This document shows positions 18,361 to 64,000 of a stretch of DNA of 64,000 bases, in pieces. Within the stretch, counting starts at the first letter, position 1, and each line of letters starts with the position of its first letter. The DNA comes from Amoebophrya sp. A120 (taxonomy: Eukaryota; Protista; Dinoflagellata), in NCBI GenBank assembly GCA_905178155.1, contig CAJINV010000018.1, positions 1,399,776-1,463,775 of the forward strand, written 5' to 3'. The translations under genes and the position numbers were made by a program. A model generated the notes under the pieces. That model was given only the letters and a program-made list of their open reading frames with translations, was not told the origin of the DNA and did not search any database.

Positions 18361-21300
18361 ATGGCAGCAGCTTCTAGCAGCAACAATAACATCAATAATC
18401 TAGTACAACTTCCCGCTGGTGTTGCTGGTACTACTACGTCCTCTTCCAGCACGATGGCTACTGCTCGCGCGGAGCTCGGGCTACTCTCCTTTCCGCCGGA
18501 CGCCGCCTTCCCGATTGCACGCATTCACACGTTGAGGCGCCATGGGTCGCAGGTTTGCGTGCTGGGGCAGAATATGCGTTGCAAATATGTCTGGGTCTGC
18601 AAAGTTGGAACTTGTGATGCTGCATTTGGATTCTGCAAAAATCTGTATTCCATGAACAGCAAAAGAGGTCCAGTTTTTGCCACGGCTAGAGGGCAACATT
18701 TCTCATGCGGTATAGGCATCAGGAAGCTCTCGCTAAATCTGTGATGCTAGGGCATGCATCACAGACAGTAGGAGTCATGCAAAATTTGCATGACAACGAC
18801 AGGCATCCTTCCAGACCCAGACATATTTGCATTTTATACAGAACGAGCTCGCTGTGTGCTCGATCACCGGCGGGAGTGGTGGTTGTGGGCCATCAAACAG
18901 CACCGGTCGGCAGCCGGCTGGAGCTCCTGCAGGCGGTCCGCCTCTTCGCGACCAGCAATCGCACTTATACCCCTTCAAAAATAACGCTGTAGCAGCTGGA
19001 ACAAATGATCTTGCAGGAGAAAACACGACCGGAGTGCTGCTTGGAGGACTGAGAAACTTCCAAGTCGGCGGCTCCTCCTCGTCTTCGTCTTTGTCCTATC
19101 GAAGTGGTCTTGGCGGCAAAGCAAACCAGAACCAATATCCTGAGGAAAAACCACGTCCCCACGCCCCGTAGTCAAGATGGGGAATGATCCGCTACACAAA
19201 TCCGCAAGTTCTTTCGGCTTTCGAGCATGACAAGTTTGGCCCCGTAGTGTAGTCCTGTTTAGCTCTAGCGCAGCGTCGATCGCATTATAAATCGACAGCT
19301 TTATCCTGATTCCAGCGTGACAAGCTCCCAGATTACAGCACTATAAAATGGTCCTCGTGGGGCTGCGCATGCGAAACATAATATGCTTGCAGCTTTGGAT
19401 GAAAAGTCGGATGGGGAAGTTTTATTTCCCCGGGATAAAAACCAAGCCGCGAAGCACGAGCCGGAAGCTTTGTCCGTGGACTTATCAATCGGAAATATCC
19501 CTGAATGTCAGGAAGGTTGCAACTTCTGATGCGGATTCTGGAATAGGCAAAAATTTGCATTGCGACGTGAGATGCGCCAAAACAAACTGGCCACTTCTTG
19601 CTATGCAAATAGGGAATTTCATCTCATGCGGATTTTTAGGCAGCATCAAGAGGCCTCCTCCTGCGCAAAACCTGTATAAGTGCTTTTGCGCGCAATAGAG
19701 ACCAGTCGCGTGATCCAAAAGATACATGTACAAAAAACTCCTGCATTCACCAACCAGACTGAGAGATATTATCTGCAAAAGTGCATAGGACTTTATTCTC
19801 CACGATTTCGCTGTGGACACGGTGACGTGGGAGCCGAGCGGCAAGTTTCTGTTCTGCGGCGACTCGGCGGGCAAGATGCACTGCATCCACGTTGCATCGA
19901 AAGCGGTGATTTGGCAGCAACCGGTGGGCGGGGGAGGAGGTGCAGGAGGGGAGCAGGAAGGCGACATTGGGATGAATCCGAATAGTGCAGCAGCAACTTC
20001 TTCTTCTAGCGGATTCCTGGACATCCAGTGTCACAGAGCCTCTGTTCATCCTGCCGATCTTCCTACGATAAACGCTAGTCATACTAGTAGTGCAGGAGCC
20101 ATGGAGGTGGAGGGAGCTCCTAGTACAAATTCTGTTGATCAATCGTCAAACAAGAAGGACGTCGGTGCTGGAAATAAAGAGCAGGACCACAGCAACACAT
20201 CATCAAGTTGTGCTGGCGGGAACAAGTTTACGCTGTCTTTTTTGCTGCGGTCAAATTCCTTGTGCTGCTTCAACGATTTGGACTTCTCCGAACTGGATCT
20301 CGCTTTGGAAACCGCGCAACCGGAAAAGGCGAAGCAGGCGGTATTACATACAGTTTATTTACGGTCTATTTTGGTTCTAGTACAAGAAAATTTGCAGGGA
20401 AACATCTTCACCAATAGGATGGATGGGTTTATAATTTTTACGCATGTGTAGCTGGTTCTGGTAGCTGGAACAAAAACCCCTTCTTCGCTAAAAGTTTATT
20501 GCTACTCGCGCTGCCGTGTTGGATGGGTGCTAGTAACTCACTGTCAAAAACAAAAGATAAAATCCAAGTGTCAACAAGTACCTTCCCATGCTAGGTTTCT
20601 GCGCTCCACGCGAAAATGCGGAAGACGCAAGTGAAGATTCCGAACGCGCGGCAGTACTCCATCTATGAAATGCAAAAATGTCAGGGTCTGGAAGATTGCC
20701 AGGTTTGTCATGCAGGTTTTATATGGCTCATATGGTTTAGAATGCAGCACCCAGCATGACAAATTCTTTAAGACCTCCATCATGCCCGTCCTGCATGAGA
20801 AATTCCCTCTCAAGTTGGTAAAAAAGCACGGCTGTTGGTAATCACGCAACACAGATTTTCTGCATGATGCAGATTTGGCATGACAAGTTGTGACCTTCCA
20901 GACCCAGACATTTTTGCATTTGATACCATCGTGGAAAACGCGATCGAAAATTCCGCCGACCTCTTCGCAGTCTCGGATTCCGTATCAAATGCAAAAATGT
21001 CTGGGTCTGGAAGGTTGGGACTTGTGATGCTAACTTTGGACTCTAGAAAATTTTGTATTGCGTGACCAGCAAGAGGAGTCTAGTTTGTGCTACGCGGGGA
21101 GGGCGTTTGTCATGCAGGGTAGGCATCAGGAAGCCCTCTCAAAATCTGTGATGCTAGGTGGTGCATTACAGACATCCTGGGTCATGCAAAATATGCATTA
21201 CAAGTCTCAGAATCTTCCAGACCCAGACACTTTTGCATTTGATATTCCGCATTGCTGGCGTACACGAGTTCCGGGCCTTCGCATAATTCATCCAGAACTA

Positions 21301-24300
21301 CACTTATCCTGAGTAAAACCGTACCCACACCAGAGTTGTAATGCAGATTTGCAAAGACAGGAAGACTTGTAATGCGCATCCCCATGAGAGCCATTCCCAA
21401 TCGTGTTTTGGAATTTGTGATGCTGTGAACAGGATGAGGAGGTGGATTTGTTATGCGGCTTCCCTTGCTAAACTGCACTACAATACAGCCTGCAACCTGT
21501 CATGCGTGACTCCCAAAACTCCTCGGTTTGTGTTGCAAAATCTCCATCCTGACCGTTTTTACTCAGGATAACTACACTATACACGACTTCTAGTAGTACC
21601 TCCTCGAGGTCCGGCTTCCACTTTCGCGACAGCGTCCCAATTCGTGCGGAGCCAGTTCTGATTCGGGTGTTCGAGGCGGGGGAGGTCGTCGGGATTCAAT
21701 CCGCCGTGCTAGTGATCTGCTATCCGACGTGCGTCGAGGTCTACGACGCGAAGGCGCTGTTGTTGCTCTCCCGCTGGCAGACCAAGGAACGGATACGCGC
21801 CGCAAGCGTGGTGCCGGAACTAGGTACAGGATCGATTGGTTGTTTATTCATATAGGAATGCCGTTCTAAGTTCTTTCGACGCTTCTTCTTTTTGTAAGGT
21901 CGTACTGTGCACCTGCATCGCAAAGCAGAACAGGTGAAAAAATCCGAAAAGTACATCAAAACAGCCGCTATCACGATTTTGACGGACAAGATGGAGCTGC
22001 GTCGGATGACGAATGGCGAAGTTTTTTACACGTCCGCCGCTGAGGCGGAAGCAGGGCAGCGAGCAGAACTCCTGAATAAAGGAACTACTATGCAGGCGAA
22101 AAAATCTTCCCCAGTAAAGAGCGCGGCCAAGAACTTGGAAAACTTTCTCACGTGTTCCGGCCTCTTCGTAGCGACGGACGACTCGGTTTCGGTTCTGATC
22201 GAGCAACCGAAGGCGAGCGATTTGACTCTGCAGAACAGCCTGGAGAACGATTTTGAGAACAGTTTGCTGCAGCAGAACCTGTCCATTTCGCAACTGCGCC
22301 GGCAGATGGAGATCGCGATCGAGCGGTCCATTACCGGGGAGCTGCACCTGCAAGTGTCCCTGATCGTGAACCTGGCGAAAAAGATGTCCACGCAAATCCC
22401 GAGCTTTGTGGCGAACTCTGCGTTGAGGTGCGTCTTGCAGTCGATCAAGGAGACAAGGCAGCTGCTGACCGAGGTCGTCGCACTGTTGGAAAGCAGCAGC
22501 AACAGCACAAGCAAGGCCTACGACCTGAAGCGCGGGCTGCAGACGATAACCGAGGCGTTGGCGCGACTCGCAACCTTCGAGCAATTGGGGGAATTGCGCC
22601 AGATTCTGGACAGTTTGTCGATCGGAAAGACCGCGCAGCGCGCGAGCTTGTCCGGGAGCCGAGGGGGGAACAAGGGCGGCCTGTGCGTGGGCGCGGCGAA
22701 ACTGAAGGAACTGGGCATGATTTGGAACAAAAACGCGGATCGCTTAAGCTTCGGCAGCCGCCAGAAAATGCTGCAGAACCAAAACAACAACAATAGTAAC
22801 GGTGCTGCAACAGGGTCACTCTCACTAAACGATGGAAGTGCATCAACTAGCACCAACTGGAACCCGGCGATTTGGCAGCAATTTCGGCTGACCTCGCTGC
22901 CGCAGCTGTGTATCCAGCTCGCCCAAGCGGAGAGGATTTCCGACATGCTGACGATTTTCGCGCGGCACGGCACGAAGTTCACCCAACAAGAGGTGATGCA
23001 GTTGCTCGAGGCAATCCCCTTTTGCTCCCTCGCGGAGGACGAAGCGAGGCTGCCCGATTGGGTGGGGTCGCAAGTGTTACCCTTGTTGTCGCACGCGACC
23101 GAGAAGCACGACGCGCGCAGGCGACTGGTGAACTGGCTGACGAGCCGCGCGCTGGACCTGGAGCAGGCGAAGGGGTGCGACAAGGCGTTGCAGTTGCTGA
23201 AAGCGGTCCTGACCCCCCACAACCGCATGCTGTTTCCCGACGCTTTTGTCTGTCGCGCGAACTTGTGGGCCGGGGTGGCGTTGCACCACAAGCAGCAGGT
23301 CCGGGGGTGCAACAAGAACGAGGAGAAGCTGCGGCGGTTGTTTCAGGAATTATCCGAGATGATCGTTTTGCGCGATCTGCACTGCTTCCCCCTGCGGTTG
23401 AGGGATTTGCAACAACTCTCCCACACGGACATTGTCTCCAAATTCCTGCAGCGGGTTATCGAAAGGAAAAATCACCCCTCCCCATATCAAAACGAAATTT
23501 CTGAGGCTGGATTTGTGTACACAAATGCTGTCTTGCTGGAGAGCACTGCAGGCCCATACTAAGTGTGAGCAGCGAGGTTTTGAGCTAGGCACTTAGCATG
23601 AAAAACATCCGCACTGTAGGCCCAACGGCATGACAAACCGCCTGCACAATAGGCGGAGCCTGCGAGGTTGCCTTCTTGCAAGACAGACACGATTTGTGAC
23701 CACAGACCAGCGTCGCAAATTTCCAAAAAACCTTTGCAGTATGGGGAGGGGGGATTTTTCCTTACTATACGGATCGGCGCCGCGGCGTTGCTGAAGGACG
23801 AGATTCTGTTTCACGTCAAAAGCTACTGCGAGCGGCACGAGCTGGATTTGGACACGGTGCTGTTCGACTACGTAAGGACAAACCTCGTGACTTCTTCTGG
23901 CACTCCCGAGGGCGGCAGGTATCAGGACAATAACTTCCAGCTCGGGACGGGCTTCGGTGCAGCGAAGCAAAACACAGCAGCGGGATATCAAGTGCAAAAA
24001 TGGTCGGGTCTGGAAGAATTCATGTTTGTCATGCTTGTCTGGCATGACTCTTAAATCTGTCATGCACGTTACCCAAGAGATCCGTTTTTCTGTGATCCAG
24101 AAGCGCAGTTTGGCATGCAGAATATGCAACACCTAGGAGCTCAGAAACTTGTCATGCTAAGCCAGTATTTGTAGCATCATGATGAGACGCCACCCAGCGT
24201 CACAAGTTTCCAGACCCAGACGCTTTTGTTTTTGATACGGGAGCAAGTAGTGCAACATCAGGCAACAACCCTGCGGAGAACGGCCGGAAATTGGAGCGGG

Positions 24301-27300
24301 CGATCGAGTATCCCGTGCACAAGTATCGCATTCGTAGTGATCGCAATCATGCATGAGAAATCTTCTTCTAAGTACTCAATTTTTGTACCTGAATCAGCAT
24401 AAGAAATTTTCCTTTTGGAAATAAAGTTTGTAATGCATGTGCTACTAGTGCGATGTTTTTGCAATGCATATCGAGGTTCTAAAGTGCATCACCGACCCGA
24501 CGACGAAGGCCAAAGCGCTGCTTATCAAATGCAAAAATGTCTGGGTCTGGAAGAATGCAAGAGTTGTCATGCATATTTCTCATGACCCATGATGCCTGCA
24601 ATGCTTGACTTAGCATCGCAGACTTGTAGAGGGCTTCCTGATCATGTACCTTCCGCATGAGAAGTGCCCTGTCCGTGTAGCAAAAACTGTACCCCTCTTG
24701 CTGGTCATGCAATACAAATTTTTTTTGAGTCCAAAAACAGCATGACAAGTTGCAATCTTCCAGACCCAGACATTTTTAGAATCCATACTGCTGCACATCT
24801 TGCAACTGAGCAACACAAACTCGCAACTGCAGGAAGTGGTAAAAGACTGCAAGGAAAATCCAGACGTGCCGCAGGACCTGAAAGACGAGATTGACGGGCA
24901 GATTCGGCTGTTAGACGCCTACGACGTGCTGTCGAAGCACAATTTGTCCCAGAAAGTCATGATCAACCCGGTCTACGCGCAGCGGGTGTGCATGTACCTG
25001 CTGTCCAATATTCACAGCGGGACCTCTGCCGAATCCACCCTCGACGACGCGTTGGTGTTGCTGCGGGTTTTCCCGGGGGCGATTCTCTCCCCGCTGGACG
25101 CCCGAATCCTCCGTGCGACGAAGATCGTGTCGGCGGACCGCTATGAGAGTCAGGTTTTAGACCTGAAAAGCGTGCTTTCCTCGGCGGGCGAGCAGTGTTT
25201 GGAAGTGTGTGACGGGGTGGTGGAGTTTTGCTGTTCGTTTTTAAAAACGATTTACGACAACGAAAAAACGGAGGAACGGGTGTTGTCCTGGTTGCATTTT
25301 CGGAACAAGAAGAATCAAGAAAATCTGGAAAGCGAAAACGCGGACCAGTTTTTGGGAAAGTTAGGTGGAGGAGCAGCAAAGAACCAAAAGCAAAATGATC
25401 ATAATGCGCAGAAGAATAGTAATAAGCCCGATTCGCAGCAGTCGAACGAGCAGCTGATGAACCCAGATCCTTTGAAAGAGACGACGGGGGCGTATGCAGC
25501 TTTATCCCCGCAAAAGAAGCAGAGAGCGGACCAGCACTGCGACTTGGCTATCATCTCCATCCGGCACGTGTTCGCCATGAAAAATTGGCACGACGTGAAC
25601 TTTTACCACCGAAAGAGGAGACGATCCAGTGACAGCCGGAACTCTGGCGGGTTGTTCTCTGCGACCGCGCAAAGTCGGAAAAGAAGCACCAGCTTGGATA
25701 ACATCGTAAGCCAGCCAGGTGGTATCGCCGCGGGGGTGGTTCCGACAGCGCTGACCACCGGCGACCAGGCGATCAGTACGACCCAAATTTCTTCCTATCA
25801 GATCGACGAGGAGGAGGAGGAAGCGGCCTACGGGTCCGGTTGGTCCACCTTCGGCATGTTGGACGCACTGCAGCGGCTGTCGAAACTGCAGAAGCAGTTC
25901 AAACTGTACGGGATAGACCCGGTGTATGGATGTGTCAGAGTTGAAATCGACAAAGTTGAAATAATTTGTCATGCATATAAATGGATGCCAGTTGGAACCC
26001 AGTTTCCAAGTGGCGCAAGACAAATTTCGGTGGTCCCTGAAACCACTTTGTCGTGCTGTGTAGGCAAAGAAGGGCGACTTTCTCATGCTACTTTAGCAGC
26101 TCGAGCTGTAACCCCAAACAGGCTTACAATCGGCCTCACTTGCCTGCTCTGCAACACACGTGCCGCGGGTCATGCATTTTATGCATTACAAATGATTTCA
26201 ACTTTGTCGATTTCAAACCTGACGCTTCCATACGGTGCTGCTGCTCGGCAACCGGGCCGACCACGTTCTTTCCGCGCTGTTCGAGCGGCACGCCAGCTCT
26301 GAGGTACACGCCTTTCTCGACCAGGCGGAGCAGATACGAGAGTGCACAACTACCCCTTACCCTCAGTTGTATAGCGTGAGCAGCAAGACAAACACCAGCA
26401 ACAGCATACGTGGAGCCTATGCATGACAAATTTTGTGTGCCCAATGTAGAAGAAGTACTGTTTGGGCTTCGGAAGTTGTCATGCAAACCGTGCCACAGAG
26501 CAGCGACTGGATTTGGGATTTTGCATGACAAATGAGGGGGGAGGGGGAGTTGTGCACTGTCATAACAGGCCGCGGCGGCGAGAGCGGCCAGTTTCAGGAA
26601 AGAGCACGAGGAGGAGGAGGAGATGTTCGTTGGGATGAATAATTCATCTGGAGGTGCTTTTCGTGGTCAACAACATGACGGCCTTGCTGTACAACCGGCA
26701 GCAACCTCCACCAGCACAACGACCACCTCCGCGCTTTTCACACGCCTACTCCACCTCGCGGACCTGCTCGGGTTGGGCCGCACCTACGTCTGGCAGCTGA
26801 TCGTCCGGGAAGCGTCGTCGAAGGGACAGGTGGCGAGTTTGCGGTTGACGATGGACTTGGTGCCCAAAGACCACACGTTGCGAGAAACGAGCGGGGAGCT
26901 CCTCGACCTGGTTCGGTCCGTCGTGAGCCACTTCCGGGCGAATCTGGGCCGGAACCAGAAGAATTGCGCAGCATTGATCTTCCACTTGGCGCACCTGCTC
27001 GATTTGCTGACCTATTGCTTGGACTGGTGCGGGGCGCGCCCGGAATCTTCCATGATGCAGCAGCAACACCACCAGCTAATGGGAGCGAATTACAACAACA
27101 GCAATGGGTTTATGTTGGGCAACAATGCCCTCACACCAGCTCCCACCAATCCCAACGCGGCGATCGAGGCTCAGAATCTCCTCCCGCTCGTCACTTACGC
27201 GGGGGATCTCCACTTTGCCGTGAACTTGCTCCTGTCCAGCGACTTGCTGGACACGGATGCGCACGTGCGGAAAACGGCGCCGCGGAAGCACTTGTCCGTC

Positions 27301-35736: not shown

Positions 35737-37454
35737 ATGTTGGCGACAGGAGGAAGTAGTGGTCCTGACGCATCGAACATGTGCTGGAGATTTACGCGAA
35801 TAGTAACAGCGGCCACGAAGTCATTGTTGCTGTTCTACTGCCTTGCCGGATCGTCCGGCATCGTCACGGTTGCTGGTGGGACGAACAAGGTTCTTACGAA
35901 GAACACAGCCCCTGCGCTCGCCGATCGCGCGGAAGAAGAAGGGAACCAGGACGGAGTTACAACAACAATCGGGTACGACGACGCTTACAACTACAAGCAA
36001 GCAAGCAACCAGGGCAGCACAGGCGTGGAGTCGCTGAGCAGTGAAGATGCGGGTGGTGAAAAACTTACCGACGTCGACGTGGTCGAACAGCACGAGTTGG
36101 CGTTTTTGCAGCCACCGGAAGCGACAGACGTGACGACGACCGGCCCCGGTGTCAGCGAGAAGGAGGCGTCCACGTTTGTCCAGCCGTGGTCGCAAGTATT
36201 CAATCGGGTCGGGAATGCTGCGAGTTCAATCATGAACAGGGCTGTGCGTTCACTATGATTCGGAAAAGCGTACCACCGCAAAAGTGAAATAAAGATTGAA
36301 TGTTTGTGTTGCAGAACTCCCCTACTGAGACTCCTGCATATACCAATACAAATTTTCGGGGCAGGAGATCTAGTGCAAAACAACTAACGTACCATCATCA
36401 AGAGACGCACTTCTCATAGAAAGATTACTTTGCGTGCCTATAATATTCCGGAGGGAGAAAAAGGACGCGTCGTAGTCCGCTTCTCTGAGAGGACTACTGC
36501 TAAGCAAAGCGTTTCTATTTGGAAACACTGCAAGTGCAACCTAATAAAGATTTGGCACTTTCGGTGACCGCGCGCTTTTCAGCCGAATATCTTCAGCACC
36601 CAGACTCTTCGGCATCAACACCAGCTTTTTCATCAGGCTCCAGAATCTTCGGCGGCTCCAGAATCTTGGCGGCTCCAGTCGGCGCCCAGCGGGATTTCGA
36701 CACGGAATTGAACGAAGCGATCGAGAGGGTGCAAGGGTCTGGATATCTCCAAGTATGCTCAACATGAAAATGCAAATGTGCGTAGAGCTGACCTACATTC
36801 TGAACTTGCGAATCTTCAAGAACCAAGACCAGAATGAGCGCGCGATGTCGGAGTTGAATCATCAACTACGGCTCCCCGACAACTTTACGTGGACGTACAA
36901 TCCTCGTGTTTTCCCAAAGCAGTTTATGGCGAGCCCAATCATTCCGCTTGAATCCGAGATCGTTTCCCTGAAACACTGGAACAAACGTGGGAACAGCTTC
37001 CTCAACATCCTCGCACCGCGGCAGCCGGAATCAAACAGTCATGCCGCCGCGTCCAAGACCGCGATCCAGCAGACTGCCTTCTCCCATGGCCGCGACTCGC
37101 ACGCTTTCGGCGACTCCATCGTTACTGTTGGCGCTGAAGTGGCGGGTACTTCTAGATTACGTTTTTTTTTTCTGTGATATTTATTTGTTTAGATACTTAC
37201 TTTATTCAAAGAGAAAGTTCACCTCTTTTCAACCATCAATTCTGAATCGCCAAGGTGCCTCGACTCGCAGTACGACGATCACCGCGGATGGGACCGACGC
37301 TGGTGTGTCGGAAGATTTGCTGGAGATCGGGGGCGATGAAGTGGCTGCCTTCGAAGCTGGTGATTCCATCGCGACCACGGGGAAGCCGGCGTCGTTCAAC
37401 GCGGTGCAGGCCAGTGAGCCAGTTTCTGCGGAGACGGCGCAGAAGTCATTGTGA
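35737..37454 (+). CDS. Hypothetical, probably secreted protein (multi-exon; structure only partly resolved)
   Basis: Series of + strand ORFs (35737-36258, 36519-36767, 36755-37177, ending 37454) with a hydrophobic N-terminal stretch and plausible GT-AG junctions; no known domain. Confidence 0.45.
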
Positions 37455-49600: not shown

Positions 49601-52600
49601 ACGTCACCGGGTACATCAAGGTAAGTACTATGAGCTCTTTGACAATACCAAAAATACAGAGCATTTATTTCGTTTGCTTGAGAAGAGCTGATACTGAAGG
49701 CAGCAGTTCTGCTTCTGCTCCTGCTGCTGGAGTGTACTGAAAGGTTGTTTTCTGTTGACCCAAGGATGAATACACAGTGTACAATTGAGAGTCACATCGT
49801 GCCAGAAAAATCTTTGAAGATTTGAATTGACAAAAATTGCAAAAAATCCTCAGGGCATCGGCGCGGAGCCGGGCATTTTTGAGGCGGGTATTTCCCTGCA
49901 GACGCTGTCCACCTTCCCGGGGTACATCATGTCGGTGGCTTACTATGCATTGCAAATATGTTGTCTGGGTCTGGAAAGATGTAACTTGTCATGCTGCATT
50001 TGCATACTACAAAAATTTGTATTCCATGGACAGCAAAACAAGGGTCCAGCTTTTGCCACGGCGAGAGGGCATTTCTCATGCGGTATAGGCATCAGGAAGC
50101 CCTCGCAAAATCTGTGATGCTAGGGCGTGCATCACTGACATCACGAGTCATGCAAAATGTGCCTGACAAACCTTGCATCCTTCGAGACCCAGACACATTT
50201 ACACTCGATACTTACGGGGGCATGTTGATCCTGGTCCAGGCCATGTCCACGATTATTTCCCGCATGATGCGGTTCACGCGAGAAGGGAAACGGATCGAGT
50301 TCGAGATTTTTTTCAACGTTTTTGCGCTGGTTTTCACGGTGTTGCTCCAGTACTACTTTACGCTACCCGTTTCCGTTGTCGGCACGGAACTGACACCCAC
50401 ACCCTTATCAAGTACAAATATGTCTGGGTCTGGAAATTTGTGATGCTAAATTGCGCACGATGAAAACACTTCCTCATGCAGGAAAGCATGACAAGTCTGC
50501 ACAGCGCTTTGTCATACGAACTCCGCATCAGAAATTGCGTTTTTGTATAACCACGCGCGAGGCTGCCACTTTTGTTGGTCATGCAACACAGATTTCACAG
50601 GAATGCAAGACCAGCATTACAAGTTCCAACTTTCCAGACCCAGACATATTTGCATTTGATAACCCTGGCTGGTCGACCACATGGCCCCGTTGAGCTTTCT
50701 GCACGAGTGGTGGCAGATATGAGAGTGCACAGCTCCCCCTCCCCCTCATTTGTATGGCATGAGCAGCAATACAAACGCTAGCGCGCATGAAGTCTATGCA
50801 TGACAAATCTACTTATGGTTCTAATGTAGTGCTGTTTGCTGGGCTTCCGGACTTTGTCATGCAAACAGTGCCAGCACAAGGCAGCGACTGGATTCGGCAA
50901 CTTGCATGACAAATGAGGGGGGGTGGAATTATGCACTGTCATAGCAGAGTTACGACATGGAAATGGTCCGGTTGATCTACGAAATCACCTTCTCCCAGTT
51001 CGTGGTTCTCGCCGTGATTCCTGTCGGCTCCTACGACTGCGTTTTCTACCTCGGCTATCCTGAGTAAAAACGTACCCACACCAGAGTCAGGATGGGGATT
51101 TTGCAACACAAACCTAGGAGTTTTGTGAGTCACGCATGACAAGTTGCGTTCTGCAGTGTAGTGCAGGTTAGCAAGTGCAGCCGCATCACAGATTCATCTG
51201 CTCATCCTGTTCACAGCATCACAAATTCCAAAACACGACTGGAGATGGCTCTCATAGGGATGCGCATTACAAGTCTTCCTGTCTTTGCAAATCTGCATTA
51301 CAACTCTGGTGTGGGGACGTTTTTACTCAGGATATCGGCAGGTTCGTGACCCGCCTGTTCAGCACGAAAACCTGGTCGGTCCGCGACGTGGAGGCGTTCT
51401 TCGACTATGACCGTGCACAACTCCCCCTCCCGCTCATTTGGCATGCAGAAGCCCAAAGCCAGTCGCTTCCTTGTGGCACTGTTTGCATGACAAATTTTGG
51501 AAGCCCGAACAGTACTGCACTAGACACACAAATTTGTCATTCATAGACTCCACGCGTGGTGGTATTTGTATTGCTGTTCATGCTATACAAATGAGGAGGA
51601 GGGGGAGTAATGCACTGTTATATCGAGCCGACCGAGTGCAGCATCCCGCAGGACTACGCACAGAACACGTTCTTCCTCGTTTGTGTCTTTCTCCAGCTGT
51701 TTATGGCGGGCGCGAACTCGTACACGGTACTGATCTTTATCGCGATGTATGCTTTGTGGGAGCTCGTTTCCCAGCGCTACTGCTATCTGCGGATGGCGAT
51801 GCCCTTGCCCATCGCTTCCTCCAGTGTGGACTCCGCGGCGCAGTTTAATCTCGGCGTCTGGGTGTCCATCATCTTAGGCGCAGTGCTCGGGCGGTGGGCC
51901 CAGAAGCTGCGGCGGAACGGCCGGTCCCGGTTGTATCCTGTGCAAAAGTATCGTACTCGTAGCAATCGCAGTCATGCATTACGAATTTCTCTCTCAAGTC
52001 AAATCCGCATTACAAATCGCATTTCTCACCACGCCGAGGAAACTTGTCATGCGATTACTTATACATTATATTAATGCGAAAAAAGAGGTAGACAGAGGGT
52101 CCCAGAGAGGTGGCCGAGAGGTAAAAAAGAGGTCGACAGAGGTAGAAAAGAGGTCGACAGAGGTGGAGAGGTGGCGCGGGACCCCGTTCGAGAGGGTCCG
52201 CGAGAGGGCGCGCGAATAAGGCCCGCAGTAAGGGCCCACCCTTAGGCGCCGCCTAAGTGGCACAGAGGGTGCAGAGAGGTCAAAAAGAGGGGGCGCGAGA
52301 GGTCGACAGAGGTGGCGAGAGGTGGCGCGAATAGGGGGCGACCTCTCGCGGACCCTCTTGGCCACCTCTCGGCCACCTCTGTCGACCTCTACCCGCGAGT
52401 ATAGCCGGACTATTAGCGGGGACCCCCAAAAGAGGTCAAAAAGAGGGTCTGCGAGAGGTCTGCGAGAGGGTAAAACACAAAGAAGCGGGCGCGAATCCGC
52501 ATGGCACTGCCCATATTTGGCACTGCAGGCCATTCCTTCGCGGAGCTGTTTTGTTCGGCGCCTTTCCGCGCCATCCTCTCGCGCACCCTCTCGCGCCACC

Positions 52601-55600
52601 CTCTTGCGCCACCCTCTCGCGCACCCTCTCGCGCCACCCTCTCGCGCTACCCTCTCCCGCCGGGCGGCTTCTGTTCGCCCCCGGTGTTCTTTGCAGCTGC
52701 TCCCTGCGCAGAGCGCCCACAGGCGCGGGAAGCGCGCAAGTGGTCCTGCGGGTTGGCGAGGCGCAATATGTTTCGTTGTGCATAGGCCCGCGGGGTTGTG
52801 GTCCGATCGGCAAACAGTCTTGCCCCGGCCCAACAGCCTTGCGCTCCGGCGGCAGCCGGAGCATGGCTAGTTATATACTAGTGCGATGCTTTTGCATTTC
52901 ATAGGTTGTGCTACGACGCCAAAATTGATACCGAGCACGGGAGCAGGGACAACAGCTACTGCAACGACGCGGGAAACGCGTTCTGGGACCAGGTGTGGCT
53001 GTATGTTGCCGGGTCGGCTCTGTGCGTGGCGTTGTTTGTGTTCTCGTGGACTTATTTGCAGCAAAAAATTCTCCGCAACTGGGGTCAACGGAAGTTGGTG
53101 GAAAAAATCTCGGCCGAGATTATGGAGGAGCAACTCGACATTGATTCTGGGGAAGATGAAACGATAACTACGAACAACAAGAACACCTTTATTTCTCGTC
53201 GGCAGACGGCGAGTACTAGAAATAAAGCTTCTTCATCTCCCAGCAACGTAACGGTGTTGAAACTTCAAAAGAACCTCACGGCAATATCCTGTGTAAAAAC
53301 GTCCCCACCCCATAGTCAAGATGGGGATCTCGCAACACAAATCGAAAAGTTTTGGGAGTCAAGCATGACAAGTTCGTCTCCGTATCGTAGTGCAGTTTAG
53401 CAAGTACAGCCGCAACACAAATACATCTACTCATCCTGTTTACAGTATTACAAAGTCCAAAACGCCATTGGAAATGACTCTCATGGAGATACGCATATAC
53501 AAATCTTCCTGTAACTGCAAATCTGCATGACAAGTATGGGGTGGGGACGTTTTTACTTGGGATAGGCGAAAAAAAGTAGTAAAGAAAATACGGTTAGCAC
53601 ACCATTCCCATTGCCGTCGCCGGGCCGAGCTAGTGCGGAGGGCGAGGCGGGTCCATTTTTCGGAATGGTGGAAAGTGGCTACGACCCACGAGAGTCGGAA
53701 AACAACGAGGTGGAAGATGTGCAAGAGATCAATGAACAGCGAGCTGCAGGGGACGACCCCTCGGCCTCCAGTGCAGGTAGCAGGATCATAAGAGACAAGA
53801 ATGTCACTAAGCCTCACACTCGGCATTCCTGGATTCCAGAGTACTTGCTCGACGGCGATGAAACAGATGTTGAAGTGATCGACGACAACGATGAAGCGAC
53901 CGATTTTGAGAACAACAGCGACGGGGGGAGAAACGAAGATTCGAAACAGACCAATCGGAAAATGATAAACAGCAAGAAACGCCCGATAATCGGCACAGCA
54001 GAAGGATCCTCATCCTCTCCTTCACGGGTGGACCAAAGCGCTAGCAATGCCATCACTTCCACGCTTGCCAAGGTGAAAAACTTCACCCATACCACCATTT
54101 TTGCGGGACGAGGGCCCAACAAAAATCTTCCGCACGGAAAGAGACATCGCGCTACGCACAACGATGTTGAGCGACACGTGTCCTACAACTACCTGAACGC
54201 CAATCCGGGACACTGCTTGAAAGCCTGGTTTGGCTTGCTGGAGGAGGAATTGCAATTTTGCGACAACCGGAACACGGAGTTTTACAAGTCCCACATTTCC
54301 TTCAAGCGCTACAGTGACGTTCCCTGTTACTTCCAGCGCGGCAAGGAGTACCTGTTTGACCAGTACCATCAACGGGGGTACATGCAGTCGCGCAAGTACC
54401 ACATCGGTCAGGAGCACGAGGATTTCTGTCCGTGTTACCCCTGCAGGCGGAAGGAAGACATGATAACCACGGGGCGAGAGGCGGTGGCCATCGGGGGGTA
54501 TTTCAACGATCAGCGGGTGGTCGTGGGGAATGTGGTCGAAGCCGGAGAAGACAACGAAAACGATCTCGCGAGGAGAAACAACATCGTCGATAATGCGGGA
54601 TTGCTGGGAGCGCAGACGTATGACGAGGCAATCGACGACTTGGAGCGAATGAGTATTTCCTCCGGAGGGGGCGAAAACAGTGACGCTATGGATTTGAAAC
54701 TTGCCGAATTGAACGAGAAGCGCACGACTTCGCGGTTGTCGTCTCTGGCGAAGGCTGGTGGAAGTGGTTCCCCGCCGAGCGGCGGGGCGCTTGTGGACTG
54801 GTTCACAAAGACCCTTGGAGCTGCCGGTTTATCTTCTGCAAGCTCAAGTAGACCACCGCCCAAAGGGAGGCAGGGGAGAGGGACGCGACTATTTGCGACG
54901 CGTGGAACTGAGGCGCCAGCCGCGCCAGCAGGTGGAGGTGCAACGACGGGAGGTAACACTGACAGGAGCAATGACGAGGACCCGCCGAATACTTCTTCTA
55001 GTAGTGCTGCTGCTAAAGCAAAAGCGAAAGCTCCCTCTCTTGCTGCCGGGAAGGAAAAAGTTCTTGACGGCGCTACTTCGGATTCCGCAGCGAAGTTGTC
55101 TGCACAGGCCAGAGCAGCGGACTTTTATCGAGCTGCTTCATCTCAGCAACGGAAAGAAAAGGGAGGGGAAATAAAGGTAAAGAAAACTTCATCACCAGCA
55201 GCGGCAAACCAAAAAGAGAAACTTCTGACGAAGAATAAAGTCGTGCCAGGTGTTGAAGCTGATGCAGCGCTCGCAAGAGCCGACGAAGAGGAGCAAGATC
55301 CTGACCAAGTATCAAATGTAAAAATGTCTGGGTCTGGAAACTTGTGATGCTGGGTGGCGTCTCATGATGAGGCGACAAATGCTGGCTCAGCATCACAAGT
55401 TTCTGCGCGTCCCGGTGTTGCCTATTCTGCATGACAAACTGCGTTTCTGCATCACAGAAAAATGGAGCTCTTGGGTAACGTGCATGACAAATTTAAGAGT
55501 CATGCCAGACAAGCATGACAAACATGCATTCTCCCAGACCCAGACATTTTCACATTTGATACCAAGGCAGTAGCGGTGATCGTCTGCACCAGACTCCGCA

Positions 55601-56825
55601 AGCGCAGGGCAATGCTACAGGTGCGAAGAGCGAAAAGAACACTTCTAGCAGCAAAAACTCGACGTCCGGTAAAAAAAATGAAAATACTAGCAGCAGTTCC
55701 TACCTCTACTACCAGCGGACTGCGACAGTGTCCTCTGTCTCTGCGATGACGACGCCACGACCACCTTTCTCAACCAGCACCACACCGCGACAGACTGCAG
55801 ATGGGGGCGTTCTTTCAACCAGCGATACACCACGAACCAAGAACATGATGACTGCAGAGGAAACGAATCATGTTTCACCTGCACCAGAACAAGAGATTCC
55901 GCACGAGCAGGAAGGTTCATCTCTAGTACAAGCATCCCCAATTACATCCGAGAGAAGTACTACAAATAAACCGCGACAAGATCACCGGCCCTTGCCTATC
56001 GACCTGGTGAATCACGGAGTTTTGAAGTCGGAAAAGAACAACGTCGGTAGGAAAAATTTCCCCGGAGTGGAAGTGCCACTGCCACCAAAAGCAGCTCCAG
56101 GAGGTCGAGCTGCGCCGAACAGGAGCAATGTGCAGCAGCAGCAACAGCAGCAGCAGCAAGGGACCACGACTCACCTTCACGAGGACCACCACGAGCAGCT
56201 TTTGCACTCGGAATCTTCTGGAAACGAAGCCACGAGGGAGAAGATTATTCACCTGGACCATCACCTGAATAGCGACCCGGAAGAGCAGGAGGTCCATCTG
56301 GACAGTCATATCGATAGCGACGAGCATGGTCACTTGCGCGTTCTTCGTCGTGCTGCAACGAACAAAAACCGCGAGGATCACCCGGAAGTCGTGCACTTGG
56401 ATCAGCACATCGACAGTGACGAACACCAGTATCTCCGCGTTGGAGGCGGTGATGTCGGTGTGAAGAAAAGTAACTCGAAGGGCGTGGCTTTGGCTAAGCC
56501 TAAGACTTCGCCTCCTTCGCCGTCATCGAGTCGTCCCAACAACAAGGTTGGTGGTAACAAAGAACTGGCTGGCAGATTGCAGGGGTTCGCGGCCGCAAGT
56601 AGTACAGCCGCAGGCAGTTCTGCTAAAAACAGGAACAGGAACGAGGCCGCAACTGCTGCGTCAGTAGGTGCACAAGGAGTTTTGACAGAACCCCCACTTC
56701 TAGGGGCTGGTGGCGGTGGCAACTACAGTAAGGCCAGCGCACCCGCTGCAGAACAGGGGCCAAGAAGCGCGGCGTTTGGCCAAGAAGGGTCGCAAGGCTC
56801 GAGCGTGGAAACGCTGGAAGAGTGA
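43698..56825 (+). CDS. Large multipass membrane protein, OSCA/CSC1/TMEM63-like
   Basis: Signal-like N-terminus, CxxC-rich extracellular segment, GVGFNLYF, TMDRFAIRMTGF, SIAYDF and SGTVFVV motifs, many TM segments, long low-complexity tail. Removing 13 TIR elements and GT-AG intron 49621-49853 gives one frame of about 2,930 aa. Confidence 0.65.
46948..47212. mobile_element. Introner family A
   Basis: TIRs; direct repeat GACCG; removal joins IRMT-GFTPE. Confidence 0.92.
47280..47506. mobile_element. Introner family H (TGT-starting)
   Basis: TGTTACAATCTCAAACGTT...AACGTTTGAGATAGTAACG; degenerate repeat TCAGA/TTTGA; frame restored. Confidence 0.85.
48218..48497. mobile_element. Introner family B
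   Basis: TIRs; direct repeat GGGAA; body like 560-838. Confidence 0.92.
48565..48815. mobile_element. Introner family A
   Basis: TIRs; direct repeat CGTAC. Confidence 0.92.
49262..49534. mobile_element. Introner family A
   Basis: TIRs; degenerate repeat GGGTT/CCGTT; frame restored. Confidence 0.88.
49944..50210. mobile_element. Introner family A
   Basis: TIRs; direct repeat CTTAC; body like 18573-18838. Confidence 0.92.
50406..50661. mobile_element. Introner family A
   Basis: TIRs; direct repeat ACCCT. Confidence 0.92.
50718..50943. mobile_element. Introner family F
   Basis: TATGAGAGTGCA...TGCACTGTCATA; direct repeat GCAGA. Confidence 0.92.
51056..51334. mobile_element. Introner family B (inverted relative to 21305-21570)
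   Basis: TIRs; direct repeat TCGGC. Confidence 0.93.
51406..51622. mobile_element. Introner family F (inverted relative to 50718-50943)
   Basis: TIRs; repeat TCGAC/TCGAG. Confidence 0.9.
51934..52903. mobile_element. Introner family D carrying a nested insertion
   Basis: Family D ends; direct repeat GGTTG; removal joins RSRL-CYDAK. Confidence 0.9.
52057..52870 (+). mobile_element. Nested non-autonomous Helitron-like element
   Basis: 3' hairpin GCTCCGGC-GGCA-GCCGGAGC (52843-52862) then CTAG|T; AT-rich 5' end; internal AGAGGT/ACCTCT repeat arrays; left boundary uncertain by a few bp. Confidence 0.65.
53285..53564. mobile_element. Introner family B
   Basis: TIRs; repeat GGCAA/GGCGA; frame restored. 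Confidence 0.9.
55310..55561. mobile_element. Introner family A (inverted relative to 23986 and 27950 copies)
   Basis: TIRs; direct repeat CCAAG. Confidence 0.93.
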
Positions 56826-57461
56826 AAATAGAGCTGCAAGAACTTTGTAGTTTCCAAGAACTGCTGGCAACACTCGTCTATTGAACTTGTTTCAAAATCA
56901 AACACACTATGCTTGTGTTTCTTGTTTTTCCACTTGCTATGGAACTGTAGGATTGACATCCATTCTCAAGAACAACTCAACAAAATGAAAGATAAAGATG
57001 ACCGCTGCCGCGAACAGATGTAGAAGTTGCGGGTACTGTAGAATCGTTCTAGTACTCGTGTACGAGGACCACGGAGTAGCATCGTCGAAGCAGCGGCTGC
57101 CTCATTTCGTTGCCCTGTTCTCAAGTCACAAAGCAAAAAATCTCGCGGTTCTGGATCTCTTTTTTAAAGCATGATCACCAAAAAGTAGAAAAAGCTGTGG
57201 ATGAATTGTTTTGCTGCGGCGCAGCACGAGATCCTGATCGAAAGGTTCGCTCGATCGCGGTGTTTCTGTTTCCTTTCCTGGTGCTGTTTGTGCTTTTTTC
57301 GGTTCTGCCTTTTCTGGTTCCGGTACCTACCTAACAAAGTGCATTCAAGTAAGTACTTTATTCACTTTTCCGAGGACTTGATACCGTCTCACAGAAGGTG
57401 TTTATCTTCTGGAAGACTTCGGCATCAGCATCAGGCTCAAGAGCCACTGCTTTACTGCGAC

Positions 57462-59517
57462 ATGATGCGAAATAAAGAACAAACTTTGCGCGCTGCAACA
57501 AGCGTGTGGCTGTGGTTGACACCCCGACACTTCTTACCGCCGCACGAAATATTTGAACCAGGTGCAGGAGGTCTCAATGCCGTCGCTGCGTACCGAGGGG
57601 CAGATGTGCGGTCGATGGACGTCACAGGAGATGAAGAAGTAGACTACGAAGCGCAACAAGGGCAAGACCCGTGGCTCGAAGAGGACCAAGCGCGCGAGCA
57701 CTCACAAGCCGCAAGAAAGGCTGCAGGGCGTGAAGACGATAAAAGCCACACTGGTACTAGCGCCCCCCTTGATCAACAGCAGCACAAAAACGAGGAATTA
57801 TTCGGCGAAGTTTCCGGGGAGCTGCGTCAAGCACTGCTCAGACGCAGGGTCAGGGCGGATTCGACAAACCCGGAAGTAGAGTGTCCTGTAACTACTGGCA
57901 CACGACGACCAGGAGATAGCACAACGGACGGCGCAGCTGTCGATGAATCTTCAACAGCATTTTCCTCCTGTAACAAGAAGACCTCCTACTTTTGCTCGTC
58001 CCCATCTGATGTACAACTCCTAGCTACGCCAACTGCATCCGGCGACGACGAAGCACACCATCGTCAGCTCCGCCTCCAGAACTACCCGCACCAAGACGAA
58101 ATCACGCCGGAACTACAACTCCGTTTACAAAAACAGCTGGACCGGGCAAGAACTCTAGGACCCCAAACGGGGACGCACAACTGTCTCGCAAAACTGTACG
58201 ACAAAGACGAGATCGTGCAGGGTGACCGGCCCAGTGCCAAGGTGGTACTCGGGGAGGAAGCGTCTTCGGAATTGAAGCAGAAATTAAACGCGCGGAAAGC
58301 GGTGATGGGAGAATTGTTGTCGAATATTAAGGGGACTAAGGATAGAAATGATGGTGTAGAAGTTGTAGCAAGTGCACGCAGCTGCAAAGAGGAAGAGCAA
58401 CACAAGGAGGTAGAAGACTCAGAAATGGTCGAGCAAGATAGAAATTCTCGTGCTGTTGAAGATCATACAACTTTTTCTCCGCCAGCTCGTCTTCACTTTT
58501 CGCTTACACAAGAAGAAGCACGGGCGGAAATCATGGAAAAACACACAACTTCTGTTGGTCCACATACGTCGGCGCTTTCTACTTCTTCTCTTTCATCGAA
58601 GAAACCTCCAGTAGCAGCAGTTTCTCCAACAGCACCGTCTTGTTCTACCGACGTACGGTCGTTGGCTTTGCTGTCCAGAGATGATTCTACTCGTAGTAAT
58701 CGACTGCATAAAAACTACTCAGGGAAAGAAACCAGCTCGTCAGAAACGACCACGACGGGGCTTGTTCTCCCGAGTGGGAGAACGAAGGGCCGCTCGGTTT
58801 CCTTTCAAATTCAAACCGTTGAAGATGCGAAGAAAAGCAGCTCGTCTACTAGTACTCCTGCTGCACGAGAACTTGTAAGCGCGGAGCATCTGGCCCCTTC
58901 TTCACCCTCCACTTCGGATATTAAAGGTAGCGCAAGAACCAGCAGTCCAACGAACGCCGTTGCATTTTCGCCTGACGGTTCCGGTTGCTACCACCTCGTT
59001 GACCCTGGGTATGTGGAAAACGTGAAACGGCAGATGCACGATTTGGAATCCGCGGGCGAACCCTGGACGGAATTGATGAATCTGTTGACGTATCCTGTGC
59101 AAAAGTATCGTATTCGTATAAATGCAAGTCTTGCATTACAAATTTTTTTCTCAAGGTAAATCCGCATTACAAATTTTAATTCTCATGCTGAGGGAATTTG
59201 TCATGCATTTATACGAGTGCGATACTTTTGCAGTCCATATTCCGGCTTTCAAACAGGCGGAGCAATTGCGGAAGATAAAGGAGTTCGCGACGATTCCGGA
59301 AGAGCACAAAAAGCTGCAATTTCTCTACATCGTGCACCGGGAGCGGTTTTCGGATCTGCGGCTTCAGTTTTTAGACGAAGAGATGGAGAAATTGATCGAA
59401 AAATGCGTCAAGGGCGAAGAGCAGACAGCTGGTGGTTCACGCGCAGTAGACAAGCGAAGACTACAGTTACAAGACGAGGAGCACATGATCCTCGGGAAGG
59501 ATAGAGAAAAAAAGTGA
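57462..59517 (+). CDS. Hypothetical protein (low-complexity, one introner)
   Basis: Long ORF joined in frame to the terminal exon by removing 59091-59239 plus 5 nt; true start uncertain (ORF open from 57201). Confidence 0.65.
59091..59239. mobile_element. Introner family D
   Basis: TATCCTGTGCAAAAGTATCG...CGATACTTTTGCAGTCCATA; degenerate repeat TGACG/TTCCG. Confidence 0.88.
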
Positions 59518-60478: not shown

Positions 60479-61402
60479 ATGGCCGAAGAGGAGCAAGTGG
60501 AGGTGCCCGTGCCGGCTGCCCCGCTGGCCGAGGACGCGCTCCCTGTCCGCGAGGAGTTTCACTCGTCCCTGTTCACCGAGCTGAGCACTGCCGAGGCCAA
60601 GTTTCGCGCCGGCGTGGAGAAAAAGGCGGCAAAGGACGCGGAGAGCGAGGGGGGAGACGGGCTGCCGGTCGCGGAGTCCAACCTGGTGTACGGCGAGCTG
60701 GGGCTGAAAAACCTGTGCGAGGTGCTCAACTGCTGCAAGATATCCACAGTAAATTTCCCGTACACGTGCAAATGCAGTCTCTGCATGACAAAACTTGCCT
60801 TCAATCCTAGTCCAGCATGACAAGTTGGACTCTGCAAGGTAGCGCAATTTGTCATGCATTTTATTGTACATGTACAGGAAATTTACATTGCATACAAGAC
60901 CGTGGGGCGCGTCTTCCCCGAGACCTGCACCTTCGTGGACTGTGGCAGCGGGCTGGGCAAGCAGGTGCTGGGCGCGGCGGTGTTGGAGCCCAAATTCGCC
61001 AAAATCGTCGGTATCGAGCTGCTCGAGGCCTACGACAGCATGGCGCAGCAGGCCGTCGCGAAGTACACCGGCCTCGAGGAGCTTCCGGACGAGAGCATCA
61101 CGAAGGCGGCGGACGTGAGCTGTGTGAAGGGCAACTTTATCGACGAGGCCGCGGCGTTTTGCACTCCGGACAACCAGGTCCTCCTCGCCGCGCTGTCCCC
61201 GTGCTACTCGGAAGAAACGCTGACGGGTCTGTGTGAGGCCGCGAAGAACGCGCAGGTGGGGAGTCTGCTGGTAACCCTAACCCGGGCCGCGCCGGACATC
61301 ACGCTGTGGGAGCCGCTGCACATCGCCCCGCTCGAGTGCCCCTGGGGAATCGCCACAATGTTCGTGCAGGAAAAAATCGCCATGCCGCCGGCGGAGGAAT
61401 AA
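60479..61402 (+). CDS. Class I SAM-dependent methyltransferase, DOT1-like domain
   Basis: LVYGEL, FVDCGSGLGK and GIELL motifs; 254 aa after removing the introner. Confidence 0.8.
60741..60894. mobile_element. Introner family I
   Basis: TATCCACAGTAAATTTCCCGTACA...TGTACAGGAAATTTACATTGCATA; direct repeat CAAGA; removal joins NCCK-TVGR. Confidence 0.92.
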
Positions 61403-63900: not shown

Positions 63901-64000
63901 CCAAAAATCGCATTACAGATTCGATATTTTTCTATGCTTGAGATCCGACCGAGGCTACAGATGAACACAACTATTTTCGATAAAGAATAGAGTGCTTACA

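What the first reader, a model, noticed from the sequence alone, without database searches (positions are those of the whole stretch)
18573..60894. Multi-family TIR introner system: 32 non-GT-AG elements whose exact removal (element plus one 5-bp repeat) rebuilds four genes
Seen: 32 elements of 149-313 bp (two expanded by nested inserts), from at least 9 TIR families, interrupt the CDS of KNTC1 (17), the OSCA-like gene (13), a hypothetical gene (1) and the DOT1-like gene (1). Nineteen have perfect 5-bp direct repeats, 11 have degenerate 5-bp repeats and 2 have 8-bp repeats. Removing the element plus one repeat restores the frame every time, with no consistent GT/GC-AG ends available. Known: introners are transposon-derived introns, and non-canonical IR/DR-flanked ones have been reported in Amoebophrya (recalled), so the class is probably not new. 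Inference: these conserved genes are functional, so a precise non-canonical removal machinery coexists with normal GT-AG splicing in the same transcripts. No transposase is encoded in this window.
Basis: partly seen in the sequence, partly recalled or inferred. Interest (0 to 1): 0.92.

Follow-up and report, generated by a model that had tools for sequence, protein, structure and literature searches.

The report
Transposon introns cut by fixed ruler
In the marine parasite Amoebophrya A120, small jumping-gene copies sit inside genes and are missing from transcript-derived sequence, a system already published, but the cut here falls at one fixed spacing (one base before and four bases after the element) whatever the flanking letters are, which likely narrows down the unknown cutting machinery.

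Summary
All 32 TAT...ATA elements are present, plus a 33rd. The window is Amoebophrya sp. A120: my spliced KNTC1 model equals the public A120 protein at 3458 of 3458 residues. The class is published (Farhat 2021, PMC7789003), so the finding is already known.

RNA-type contigs lack all 17 KNTC1 elements and three GT-AG introns in the same contigs; DNA-type contigs run into the elements.

The unit removed is not 'element plus one repeat' but element plus 5 nt, cut 1 nt before TAT and 4 nt after ATA. Eight junctions with imperfect repeats share only that register. At a perfect 8-bp repeat, 271 nt are removed, not 274, in 4 of 4 runs. An element with almost no repeat obeys it too. The paper calls these borders variable or unknown.

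The cut puts N-T-A in register with this organism's canonical G-T-A donors, so I favour a relaxed major spliceosome (about 0.55) over a separate hairpin-guided cutter (0.35). No transposase was found.

The parts
18361..34590 (+). KNTC1/Rod gene, 3458 aa, 17 element introns and 3 GT-AG introns; equals A120 protein CAD7971141.1
18573..18838 (+). TIR element, repeat CAGAA/CAGAA; intron 18572-18842 (271 nt)
   Evidence: RNA joint skips 271 in 3 of 4 runs
19136..19437 (+). TIR element, 8-bp repeat 7 of 8 alike; intron 19135-19441 (307 nt), informative
   Evidence: RNA joint 19133>19441 in 3 of 4 runs
19483..19787 (+). TIR element, GGACT/GGACT; intron 19482-19791 (310 nt)
   Evidence: 4 of 4 runs
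20341..20594 (+). canonical GT-AG intron
20664..20925 (+). TIR element, CCATC/CCATC; intron 20663-20929 (267 nt)
20983..21244 (+). TIR element, TTCCG/TTCCG; intron 20982-21248 (267 nt)
21305..21570 (+). TIR element with perfect 8-bp repeat ACTACACT; intron 21304-21574 (271 nt, TT..TA), the uniquely placed junction
   Evidence: joint 21303>21575, no ambiguity, 4 of 4 runs
21824..21964 (+). canonical GT-AG intron
23457..23769 (+). TIR element, CGGGT/CGGAT; intron 23456-23773 (318 nt), informative
   Evidence: 4 of 4 runs
23986..24237 (+). TIR element, CGGGA/CGGGA; intron 23985-24241
24309..24470 (+). TIR element, TCGAG/TCGAG; intron 24308-24474
24523..24787 (+). TIR element, CTGCT/CTGCT; intron 24522-24791
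25925..26232 (+). TIR element, CGGTG/CGGTG; intron 25924-26236
   Evidence: contig length accounting
26335..26564 (+). TIR element TAC...ATA, GCAGA/ACAGG; intron 26334-26568, informative
27950..28213 (+). TIR element, CGTTT/CGCTT; intron 27949-28217, informative
   Evidence: adjacent contig pieces 27947>28217
30424..31329 (+). TIR element expanded by a nested insert (906 bp), CACCT/CACGT; intron 30423-31333, informative
   Evidence: adjacent pieces 30422>31334 in X3 and X6
32355..32663 (+). TIR element, CGTGG/CGTGG; intron 32354-32667
   Evidence: contig length accounting
32860..33127 (+). TIR element, CGTTT/CGTTC; intron 32859-33131, informative
33796..33923 (+). canonical GT-AG intron
34157..34461 (+). 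TIR element, ACGCT/ATGCT; intron 34156-34465, informative
36254..36589 (+). 33rd element, not in the finding; flanks TTCAC/TCTTC (2 of 5); intron 36253-36593 (341 nt) in a 229-aa gene starting at 35737
   Evidence: only 341-nt removals reproduce A120 protein CAD7971143.1; no RNA laid
43698..56826 (+). OSCA/TMEM63-like membrane protein gene, 13 element introns and 1 GT-AG intron; A120 protein CAD7971152.1
   Evidence: no RNA laid
46948..47212 (+). TIR element, GACCG/GACCG; predicted intron 46947-47216
47265..47521 (+). TIR element, GGCTG/GGCTG; predicted intron 47264-47525
48218..48497 (+). TIR element, GGGAA/GGGAA; predicted intron 48217-48501
48565..48815 (+). TIR element, CGTAC/CGTAC; predicted intron 48564-48819
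49262..49534 (+). TIR element, GGGTT/CCGTT; predicted intron 49261-49538
49621..49853 (+). canonical GT-AG intron
49944..50210 (+). TIR element, CTTAC/CTTAC; predicted intron 49943-50214
50406..50661 (+). TIR element, ACCCT/ACCCT; predicted intron 50405-50665
50718..50943 (+). TIR element, GCAGA/GCAGA; predicted intron 50717-50947
51056..51334 (+). TIR element, TCGGC/TCGGC; predicted intron 51055-51338; the public protein has 3 extra residues here
51406..51622 (+). TIR element, TCGAC/TCGAG; predicted intron 51405-51626
51934..52903 (+). TIR element expanded by a nested repeat (970 bp), GGTTG/GGTTG; predicted intron 51933-52907
53285..53564 (+). TIR element, GGCAA/GGCGA; predicted intron 53284-53568
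55310..55561 (+). TIR element, CCAAG/CCAAG; predicted intron 55309-55565
59091..59239 (+). TIR element, TGACG/TTCCG, in a hypothetical gene; predicted intron 59090-59243
   Evidence: open frame only
60741..60894 (+). TIR element, CAAGA/CAAGA, in the DOT1-like gene 60479-61402; predicted intron 60740-60898
   Evidence: open frame only
11892..12170 (.). further copy inside a duplicated piece of KNTC1 exon; filled partner of the empty site at about 19062-19066, showing a 5-bp target-site duplication (AGTCG)

Best explanation
These are the introner elements of Amoebophrya A120: non-coding TAT...ATA inverted-repeat elements with 5-bp target-site duplications, which the KNTC1 transcript lacks as element plus 5 nt at a fixed register (N-TAT...ATA-NNNN), likely because the paired ends fold into a hairpin that presents both cut sites to a relaxed major spliceosome. 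Shown: the elements, the 5-bp duplication, their absence from RNA-type contigs, the -1/+4 register, and that the repeat and GT/AG letters are not needed. Inferred: a DDE-type transposase elsewhere made the insertions; the hairpin forms in the pre-mRNA; the spliceosome reads U and A at intron positions +2 and +3 as it does in canonical G-U-A donors, ignores +1, and finds the 3' site by distance from the element end. Because one base of the left duplicate and four of the right go with the intron, an ordinary 5-bp insertion is erased exactly, in either orientation and at any target sequence. My odds: identity with the published elements 0.97; fixed register as the general A120 rule 0.9; spliceosome as the catalyst 0.55.
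For: Identity: the -1/+4 model has 0 differences from the A120 protein over 3458 aa, while the five other registers give 6, 6, 4, 2 and 3; the paper's A120 repeat motif is TAT, seven bases, AAA. Removal: 10 of 10 elements and 2 of 2 GT-AG introns in 18300-24900 appear as joints; the other 7 follow from adjacent pieces (2) or contig length (5). Register: of 15 junctions scored, 8 are informative and their only common register is -1/+4; about 0.007 if the cut were uniform in the repeat. At the perfect 8-bp repeat the joint is unique and removes 271, not 274. At 36254, with 2 of 5 flank matches, only 341-nt removals fit the public protein; my repeat-based guess of 343 failed. Polarity follows the transcript: 21305 and 19136 are one family in opposite orientations. 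Elsewhere 68 of 79 oriented elements fit plus 5 mod 3. Hairpin: ends pair in the predicted fold of 32 of 33. Spliceosome hint: 13 of 13 canonical donors listed start GTA and 33 of 33 ruler introns start NTA; in the paper's Table S4 all 9 main A120 non-canonical donors are NT and all 9 A25 ones are TT; the paper found 83 of 89 spliceosome proteins but no U1 snRNA.
Against: No call tests the catalyst. G at +1 (31 of 101, p 0.74) and AG at the 3' end (10 of 101, p 0.16) are not enriched, so there is no trace of spliceosomal preference at those positions. The NTA register has roughly a 1 in 6 chance of arising by coincidence, and TA ends are also a transposon signature. The +2 to +4 bases are predicted to be paired, and 4 nt leave no room for an ordinary branch-to-AG stretch. 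The register rests on one gene in RNA (two samples, one study, contigs only, RNA status guessed by the tool) plus annotations that probably derive from related data. One of 13 OSCA-like junctions (51056) is not reproduced: the public protein has an extra GRF that no single intron in the searched range gives. Eleven of 79 oriented elements did not fit plus 5 (phase calls are noisy). The 19483 ends do not pair in the predicted fold, yet it is removed.
Confidence: 0.55

Rival explanations
1. A second, spliceosome-independent RNA cut-and-join system recognises the UAU...AUA hairpin base and cuts at -1 and +4, as proposed for Euglena nonconventional introns.
For: No base preference at either cut. 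The geometry is of the Euglena type, a short 5' spacer and longer 3' spacer around a paired motif (N3-CDG...CH'G-N5-6; abstract and discussion of PMC12501133). Canonical introns in the same genes stay strictly GT-AG.
Against: No such enzyme was identified. The NTA register matches canonical donors in two Amoebophrya species. A spliceosome with changed U2AF and snRNA handles non-canonical transposon introns in Fritillaria (abstract of PMC13326754).
Confidence: 0.35
2. The elements splice themselves out as ribozymes.
For: They fold strongly (z -7.9 for 23440-23790, z -2.2 for 21290-21590).
Against: Eleven unrelated bodies and both orientations are removed at one register; no Rfam family at gathering threshold in the window.
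Confidence: 0.04
3. The elements are cut out of the DNA before transcription, or are absent in part of the population.
For: They have transposon ends and target duplications. The joint list for the DNA-type run was truncated, so a rare joined DNA form is not excluded.
Against: DNA-type contigs at even depth (22-31) run into the elements and through canonical introns. The cut is asymmetric and follows transcript direction, not element direction.
Confidence: 0.03
4. The joints are reverse-transcriptase template switches across hairpins at the direct repeats.
For: Hairpins flanked by short repeats are the usual setting for such artefacts (general knowledge).
Against: The joint at 21305 has no shared letters and ignores an 8-nt perfect repeat. 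Retention of any element breaks the frame, and the spliced protein is colinear with a 67% identical relative at 8 of 11 element junctions in range.
Confidence: 0.02

Closest known systems
Introner elements (IEs) of Amoebophrya sp. A120 (Farhat et al. 2021, PMC7789003)
   Same: Same organism and gene models; TAT-N7-AAA inverted repeats; short direct repeats (5 bp in the legend of Fig. S19); RNA-supported non-GT-AG introns; genes mixing both intron types; no transposase inside.
   Different: The paper reports no clear splicing signature, splice sites 'variable' relative to the hairpin, repeats 1-5 nt from the sites, and direct repeats of 3-5 nt. Here the cut resolves to -1/+4 and does not need the repeat. 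I saw legends, not figures; Figs 3 and S21-S23 may already show peaks at these offsets.
A120 introner families in Gozashti et al. 2025 (PMC12130899, supplementary file 8)
   Same: 58 families listed for A120; of the 22 rows seen most are TIR DNA elements of unknown superfamily with many non-canonical ends.
   Different: Automated calls vary by family (co-opt both, co-opt 5', carry 5'; TSD 2-5 bp) and state no single register in the rows seen.
Euglenid nonconventional introns (PMC12501133; review PMC11282704)
   Same: Inverted repeats pair the ends; cut sites lie at set spacers from the paired motif; coexist with GT-AG introns; machinery unknown.
   Different: Motif CDG...CH'G with spacers 3 and 5-6 and a purine preference at the exon start, against TAT...ATA with spacers 1 and 4 and no preference seen. 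Circular excision products are reported there and untested here.
Fritillaria borealis non-canonical introns (PMC13326754 abstract; review PMC11282704)
   Same: MITE-derived introns with TIRs and TSDs that escape GT-AG.
   Different: They have preferred ends (AG-AC, AG-AT), keep U1 and use duplicated U2AF; A120 ends are free and U1 snRNA was not found.
IS3EU/GingerRoot DNA transposons (PMC10045372)
   Same: TA..TA termini.
   Different: Their TSDs are usually 6 bp; here 5 bp. No transposase is available to compare.

Membership tests
Amoebophrya A120 introner elements | In the A120 genome | tested here: met
   Three window proteins are named A120 proteins; KNTC1 identical over 3458 aa
Amoebophrya A120 introner elements | Inverted repeats starting TAT, seven bases, then AAA | tested here: met
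   32 of 33 start TAT, one TAC; the A run is weaker in a few (25925, 47265, 26335 group)
Amoebophrya A120 introner elements | Short direct repeat at the exon-intron borders | tested here: met
   20 perfect, 10 degenerate, 2 of 8 bp; nearly absent at 36254
Amoebophrya A120 introner elements | Absent from mRNA at non-GT-AG ends | tested here: met
Amoebophrya A120 introner elements | Repeated in the genome | tested here: met
   families within the window; copies at up to 95% identity in loci L001-L164
Non-autonomous TIR DNA transposon (MITE) | Target-site duplication made on insertion | tested here: met
   empty/filled pair, AGTCG once and twice; 240 of 297 perfect 5-bp repeats
Non-autonomous TIR DNA transposon (MITE) | Autonomous partner with matching ends and a transposase | tested here: inconclusive
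   none in the window or among 5 long TIR pairs in 596 kb; whole genome not available
IS3EU/GingerRoot | TA..TA termini | tested here: met
   33 of 33; feature
IS3EU/GingerRoot | 6-bp TSD | tested here: not met
   0 of 297 with a perfect 6-bp repeat; not filed in this family
IS3EU/GingerRoot | IS3-like DDE transposase | not testable with these tools
   no autonomous copy found
Major-spliceosome intron | GT/GC...AG ends | tested here: not met
   0 of 33 GT-AG at the resolved register; 2 of 68 in other loci
Major-spliceosome intron | Lariat intermediate, U2/U5/U6 dependence | not testable with these tools
   only assembled contigs mapped; raw reads of X9 did not
Euglenid nonconventional intron | N3-CDG...CH'G-N5-6|R signature | tested here: not met
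   ends are N-TAT...ATA-N4; analogous at most
Euglenid nonconventional intron | Excised as full-length circle | not testable with these tools
   no suitable reads

The most novel reading that the evidence does not exclude
Amoebophrya A120 runs a second mRNA splicing machine, separate from the spliceosome, that is blind to splice-site letters and cuts by ruler at -1/+4 from a UAU...AUA hairpin base. Being matched to a 5-bp target duplication, it makes any insertion of these transposons invisible, in either orientation and at any site, converging on the Euglena system.
Probability: 0.35. Interest if true: 0.9.

Novelty: already known. Interest (0 to 1): 0.5.

Why it matters
The elements are known, but how tens of thousands of them are removed is open, and the published description leaves their borders undefined. 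A fixed register turns 'no splicing signature' into one rule, N|TAT...ATA-NNNN read from the element ends. It tells experimenters exactly which lariat, circle or linear ends to look for, lets annotators place junctions inside repeats, and explains why a 5-bp duplication is harmless while an 8-bp one adds a codon. I did not find the rule stated in 5 literature searches on the organism; subscription papers such as Roy et al. 2023 and all figures were not visible.

Tried and rejected
No whole genome was held, so no genome-wide junction count or transposase search. No holder was on record as RNA; X3-X6 are guessed RNA and are treated as such because they skip canonical introns. The first protein search missed the full protein because of its length limit. 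The TIR pattern is absent from viral contigs. Long TIR pairs in the loci held no Pfam-recognised frame in the one scanned (L022); the 253 frames of 200 aa or more in the loci were not scanned. 'Element plus one repeat' was rejected at 21305 and 19136. Cryptic GT-AG use was rejected for 18573, 19483, 24309 and 26335 by joint length, and for 46948, 47265 and 51934 by annotation only. My reading of 36254 as ending at 36591 with an offset repeat was wrong; the row for it carries that error, which changes neither the G nor the AG count. I expected 8-bp duplications to be enriched over 6 and 7 bp; none of the three lengths occurred among 297 elements, so that test is empty. G at +1 and AG at the 3' end are not enriched. 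Rfam found nothing.
Full report
Observation. A scan for TAT...ATA pairs with matching arms recovered 31 of the elements; the 32nd starts TAC at 26335 and was read from the sequence. Repeat classes are 20 perfect 5-bp, 10 degenerate and 2 of 8 bp. The 32 form 10 groups by body similarity, the largest with 13 members, and three groups occur in both orientations. A 33rd element lies at 36254-36589, and four more copies lie before position 12200. Removing each element plus 5 nt, with four GT-AG introns, gives 3458 aa and 2910 aa open frames. For KNTC1 plus 2 and plus 8 are also open, so frame alone fixes the length only modulo 3 there; for the OSCA-like gene only plus 5 is open.

Organism and prior work. 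The KNTC1 exon retrieves an Amoebophrya sp. A120 protein at 100% identity, as do two more genes. Farhat et al. 2021 (PMC7789003; I read the abstract, passages, sections 10, 11, 12 and 16, and supplement parts 1-3) describe these elements: over 60% of RNA-supported introns non-canonical, A120 repeats starting TAT-N7-AAA, direct repeats of 3-5 nt, no U1 snRNA found, no transposase found in A120. They state that no clear splicing signature exists and that borders relative to the hairpin are variable or unknown. The finding as written is therefore known.

Removal from RNA. On 18300-24900, contigs of four RNA-type runs (two samples, one study) show 12 joints: all 10 elements, each skipping element plus 5 nt, and both GT-AG introns. 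Ten joints are in 4 of 4 runs and two in 3 of 4. On 18000-35000 a 10,067-nt contig of X3 gives adjacent pieces across 27950 and 30424, and gaps of 98, 190 and 232 nt that account for the other five elements and the third canonical intron. Contigs of the DNA-type run X1 run into the elements. No RNA was laid on the other four genes.

The duplication is real. A 96-nt copy of KNTC1 exon at 11834-12211 carries an element where the gene has none; AGTCG occurs once in the empty site and twice around the insert. A pattern scan fetched 164 loci (596 kb) from one other assembly with the same families. Of 297 elements detected without using the repeat, 240 have a perfect 5-bp repeat and none has 6, 7 or 8. 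Of 297, 99 had confident frame calls on both flanks, 79 on the same strand, and 68 of those fit plus 5 modulo 3.

Where the cut falls. In a perfect repeat the cut cannot be placed; in an imperfect one it can. Eight of 15 junctions scored are informative, and the number of left-repeat bases kept is 3-4, 4, 4-5, 1-4, 3-5, 4-5, 0-4 and 2-5. Only 4 is common to all (for three of these the left end comes from contig length arithmetic). The intron is thus N-TAT...ATA-NNNN. This register gives 0 differences from the public KNTC1 protein; the others give 2-6. Two cases show that the repeat is not the guide. At 21305 the 8-bp repeat is perfect, yet the joint 21303>21575 removes 271 nt with no shared letters, leaving three extra bases in the message. 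At 36254 the flanks match at 2 of 5; I predicted 343 nt from an offset repeat, but only 341-nt removals at -2/+3, -1/+4 or 0/+5 reproduce the public protein. Elements 21305 and 19136 are one family in opposite orientations and are cut alike in transcript direction, which points to an RNA-level event. Against: in the OSCA-like gene 12 of 13 junctions agree with the public protein, but at 51056 it has an extra GRF; a short exon inside the element could give it (32 solutions), and I suspect an annotation artefact but could not test it.

Mechanism. The ends pair in the predicted fold of 32 of 33 elements. At the resolved register every intron starts N-T-A, and 13 of 13 canonical donors that I listed start G-T-A. 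The paper's Table S4 shows the same unremarked signal: all 9 main A120 non-canonical donors are NT and all 9 in A25 are TT. From my own knowledge of spliceosome structures, G+1 pairs with the last G of the intron while +2 and +3 contact U6, so losing the first pair and keeping U-A is coherent; this is recalled, not tested. I give the relaxed spliceosome 0.55. The ends carry no residual preference (G at +1 in 31 of 101, AG in 10 of 101), and the spacer geometry resembles Euglena's code (PMC12501133, abstract and discussion), so a separate cutter gets 0.35. Fritillaria is the precedent for a spliceosome route (PMC13326754, abstract only; review PMC11282704, section 6 and passages).

Mobiliser. 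No transposase family was hit in the window. TA..TA ends match IS3EU/GingerRoot but the 6-bp duplication does not (PMC10045372, passages). Gozashti et al. 2025 (PMC12130899, passages and 22 of 58 A120 rows of a supplementary table; files 13 and 14 not searched) class most rows seen as TIR elements of unknown superfamily and report one family with an integrase-like frame. PMC11453091 was seen as passages and adds nothing on the register.

Verdict. That detail was not found in the searches run but could be visible in figures I could not see. Interest 0.5.

Noticed in passing
window 11834-12211: A 96-nt copy of KNTC1 exon 19010-19105 sits in a patch of element fragments (about 10800-12330) and has gained its own insertion; looks like a captured or duplicated gene fragment.
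   Followed up: partly
window 52065-52874; L022:773-1562: The insert inside element 51934 is itself a repeat, 77% identical to an insert inside a different TAT family in L022; no obvious inverted ends and no Pfam hit.
   Followed up: partly
window 30464-31228: The insert inside element 30424 is flanked by an 18-bp direct repeat (AATCATGCATGACAAATC) and ends in an A run, as a retro-insertion would.
   Followed up: no
window 51056-51334: The public protein CAD7971152.1 has a duplicated GRF here that no single intron in the searched range gives.
   Followed up: partly
window 38530-42480: AAA ATPase gene with about ten GT-AG introns and no TIR element, between two genes full of them.
   Followed up: no
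window 1779-3344, 8495-10030, 13089-14837: Three paralogous uninterrupted frames with a weak DUF7796 match, below cut-off; the third has a tandem repeat expansion.
   Followed up: no
loci L001-L164: TIR positions 4, 5 and 7 pair in only 50-63% of 68 elements while 11-13 pair in 99-100%; TAT and AA were required by the detector, so part of this is built in. The duplication starts at codon phase 2 in 39 of 68.
   Followed up: no
window 6256-6610, 16740-17620, 62100-64000: Palindromic TGACACGCA repeats, tandem arrays and an AT-rich repeat region.
   Followed up: no
protein P0003: A 2417-aa relative of KNTC1 (67% identical) on a 7,663-nt contig, so probably uninterrupted there; at 23457 and 27950 it has the residue given by the -1/+4 register.
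   Followed up: partly
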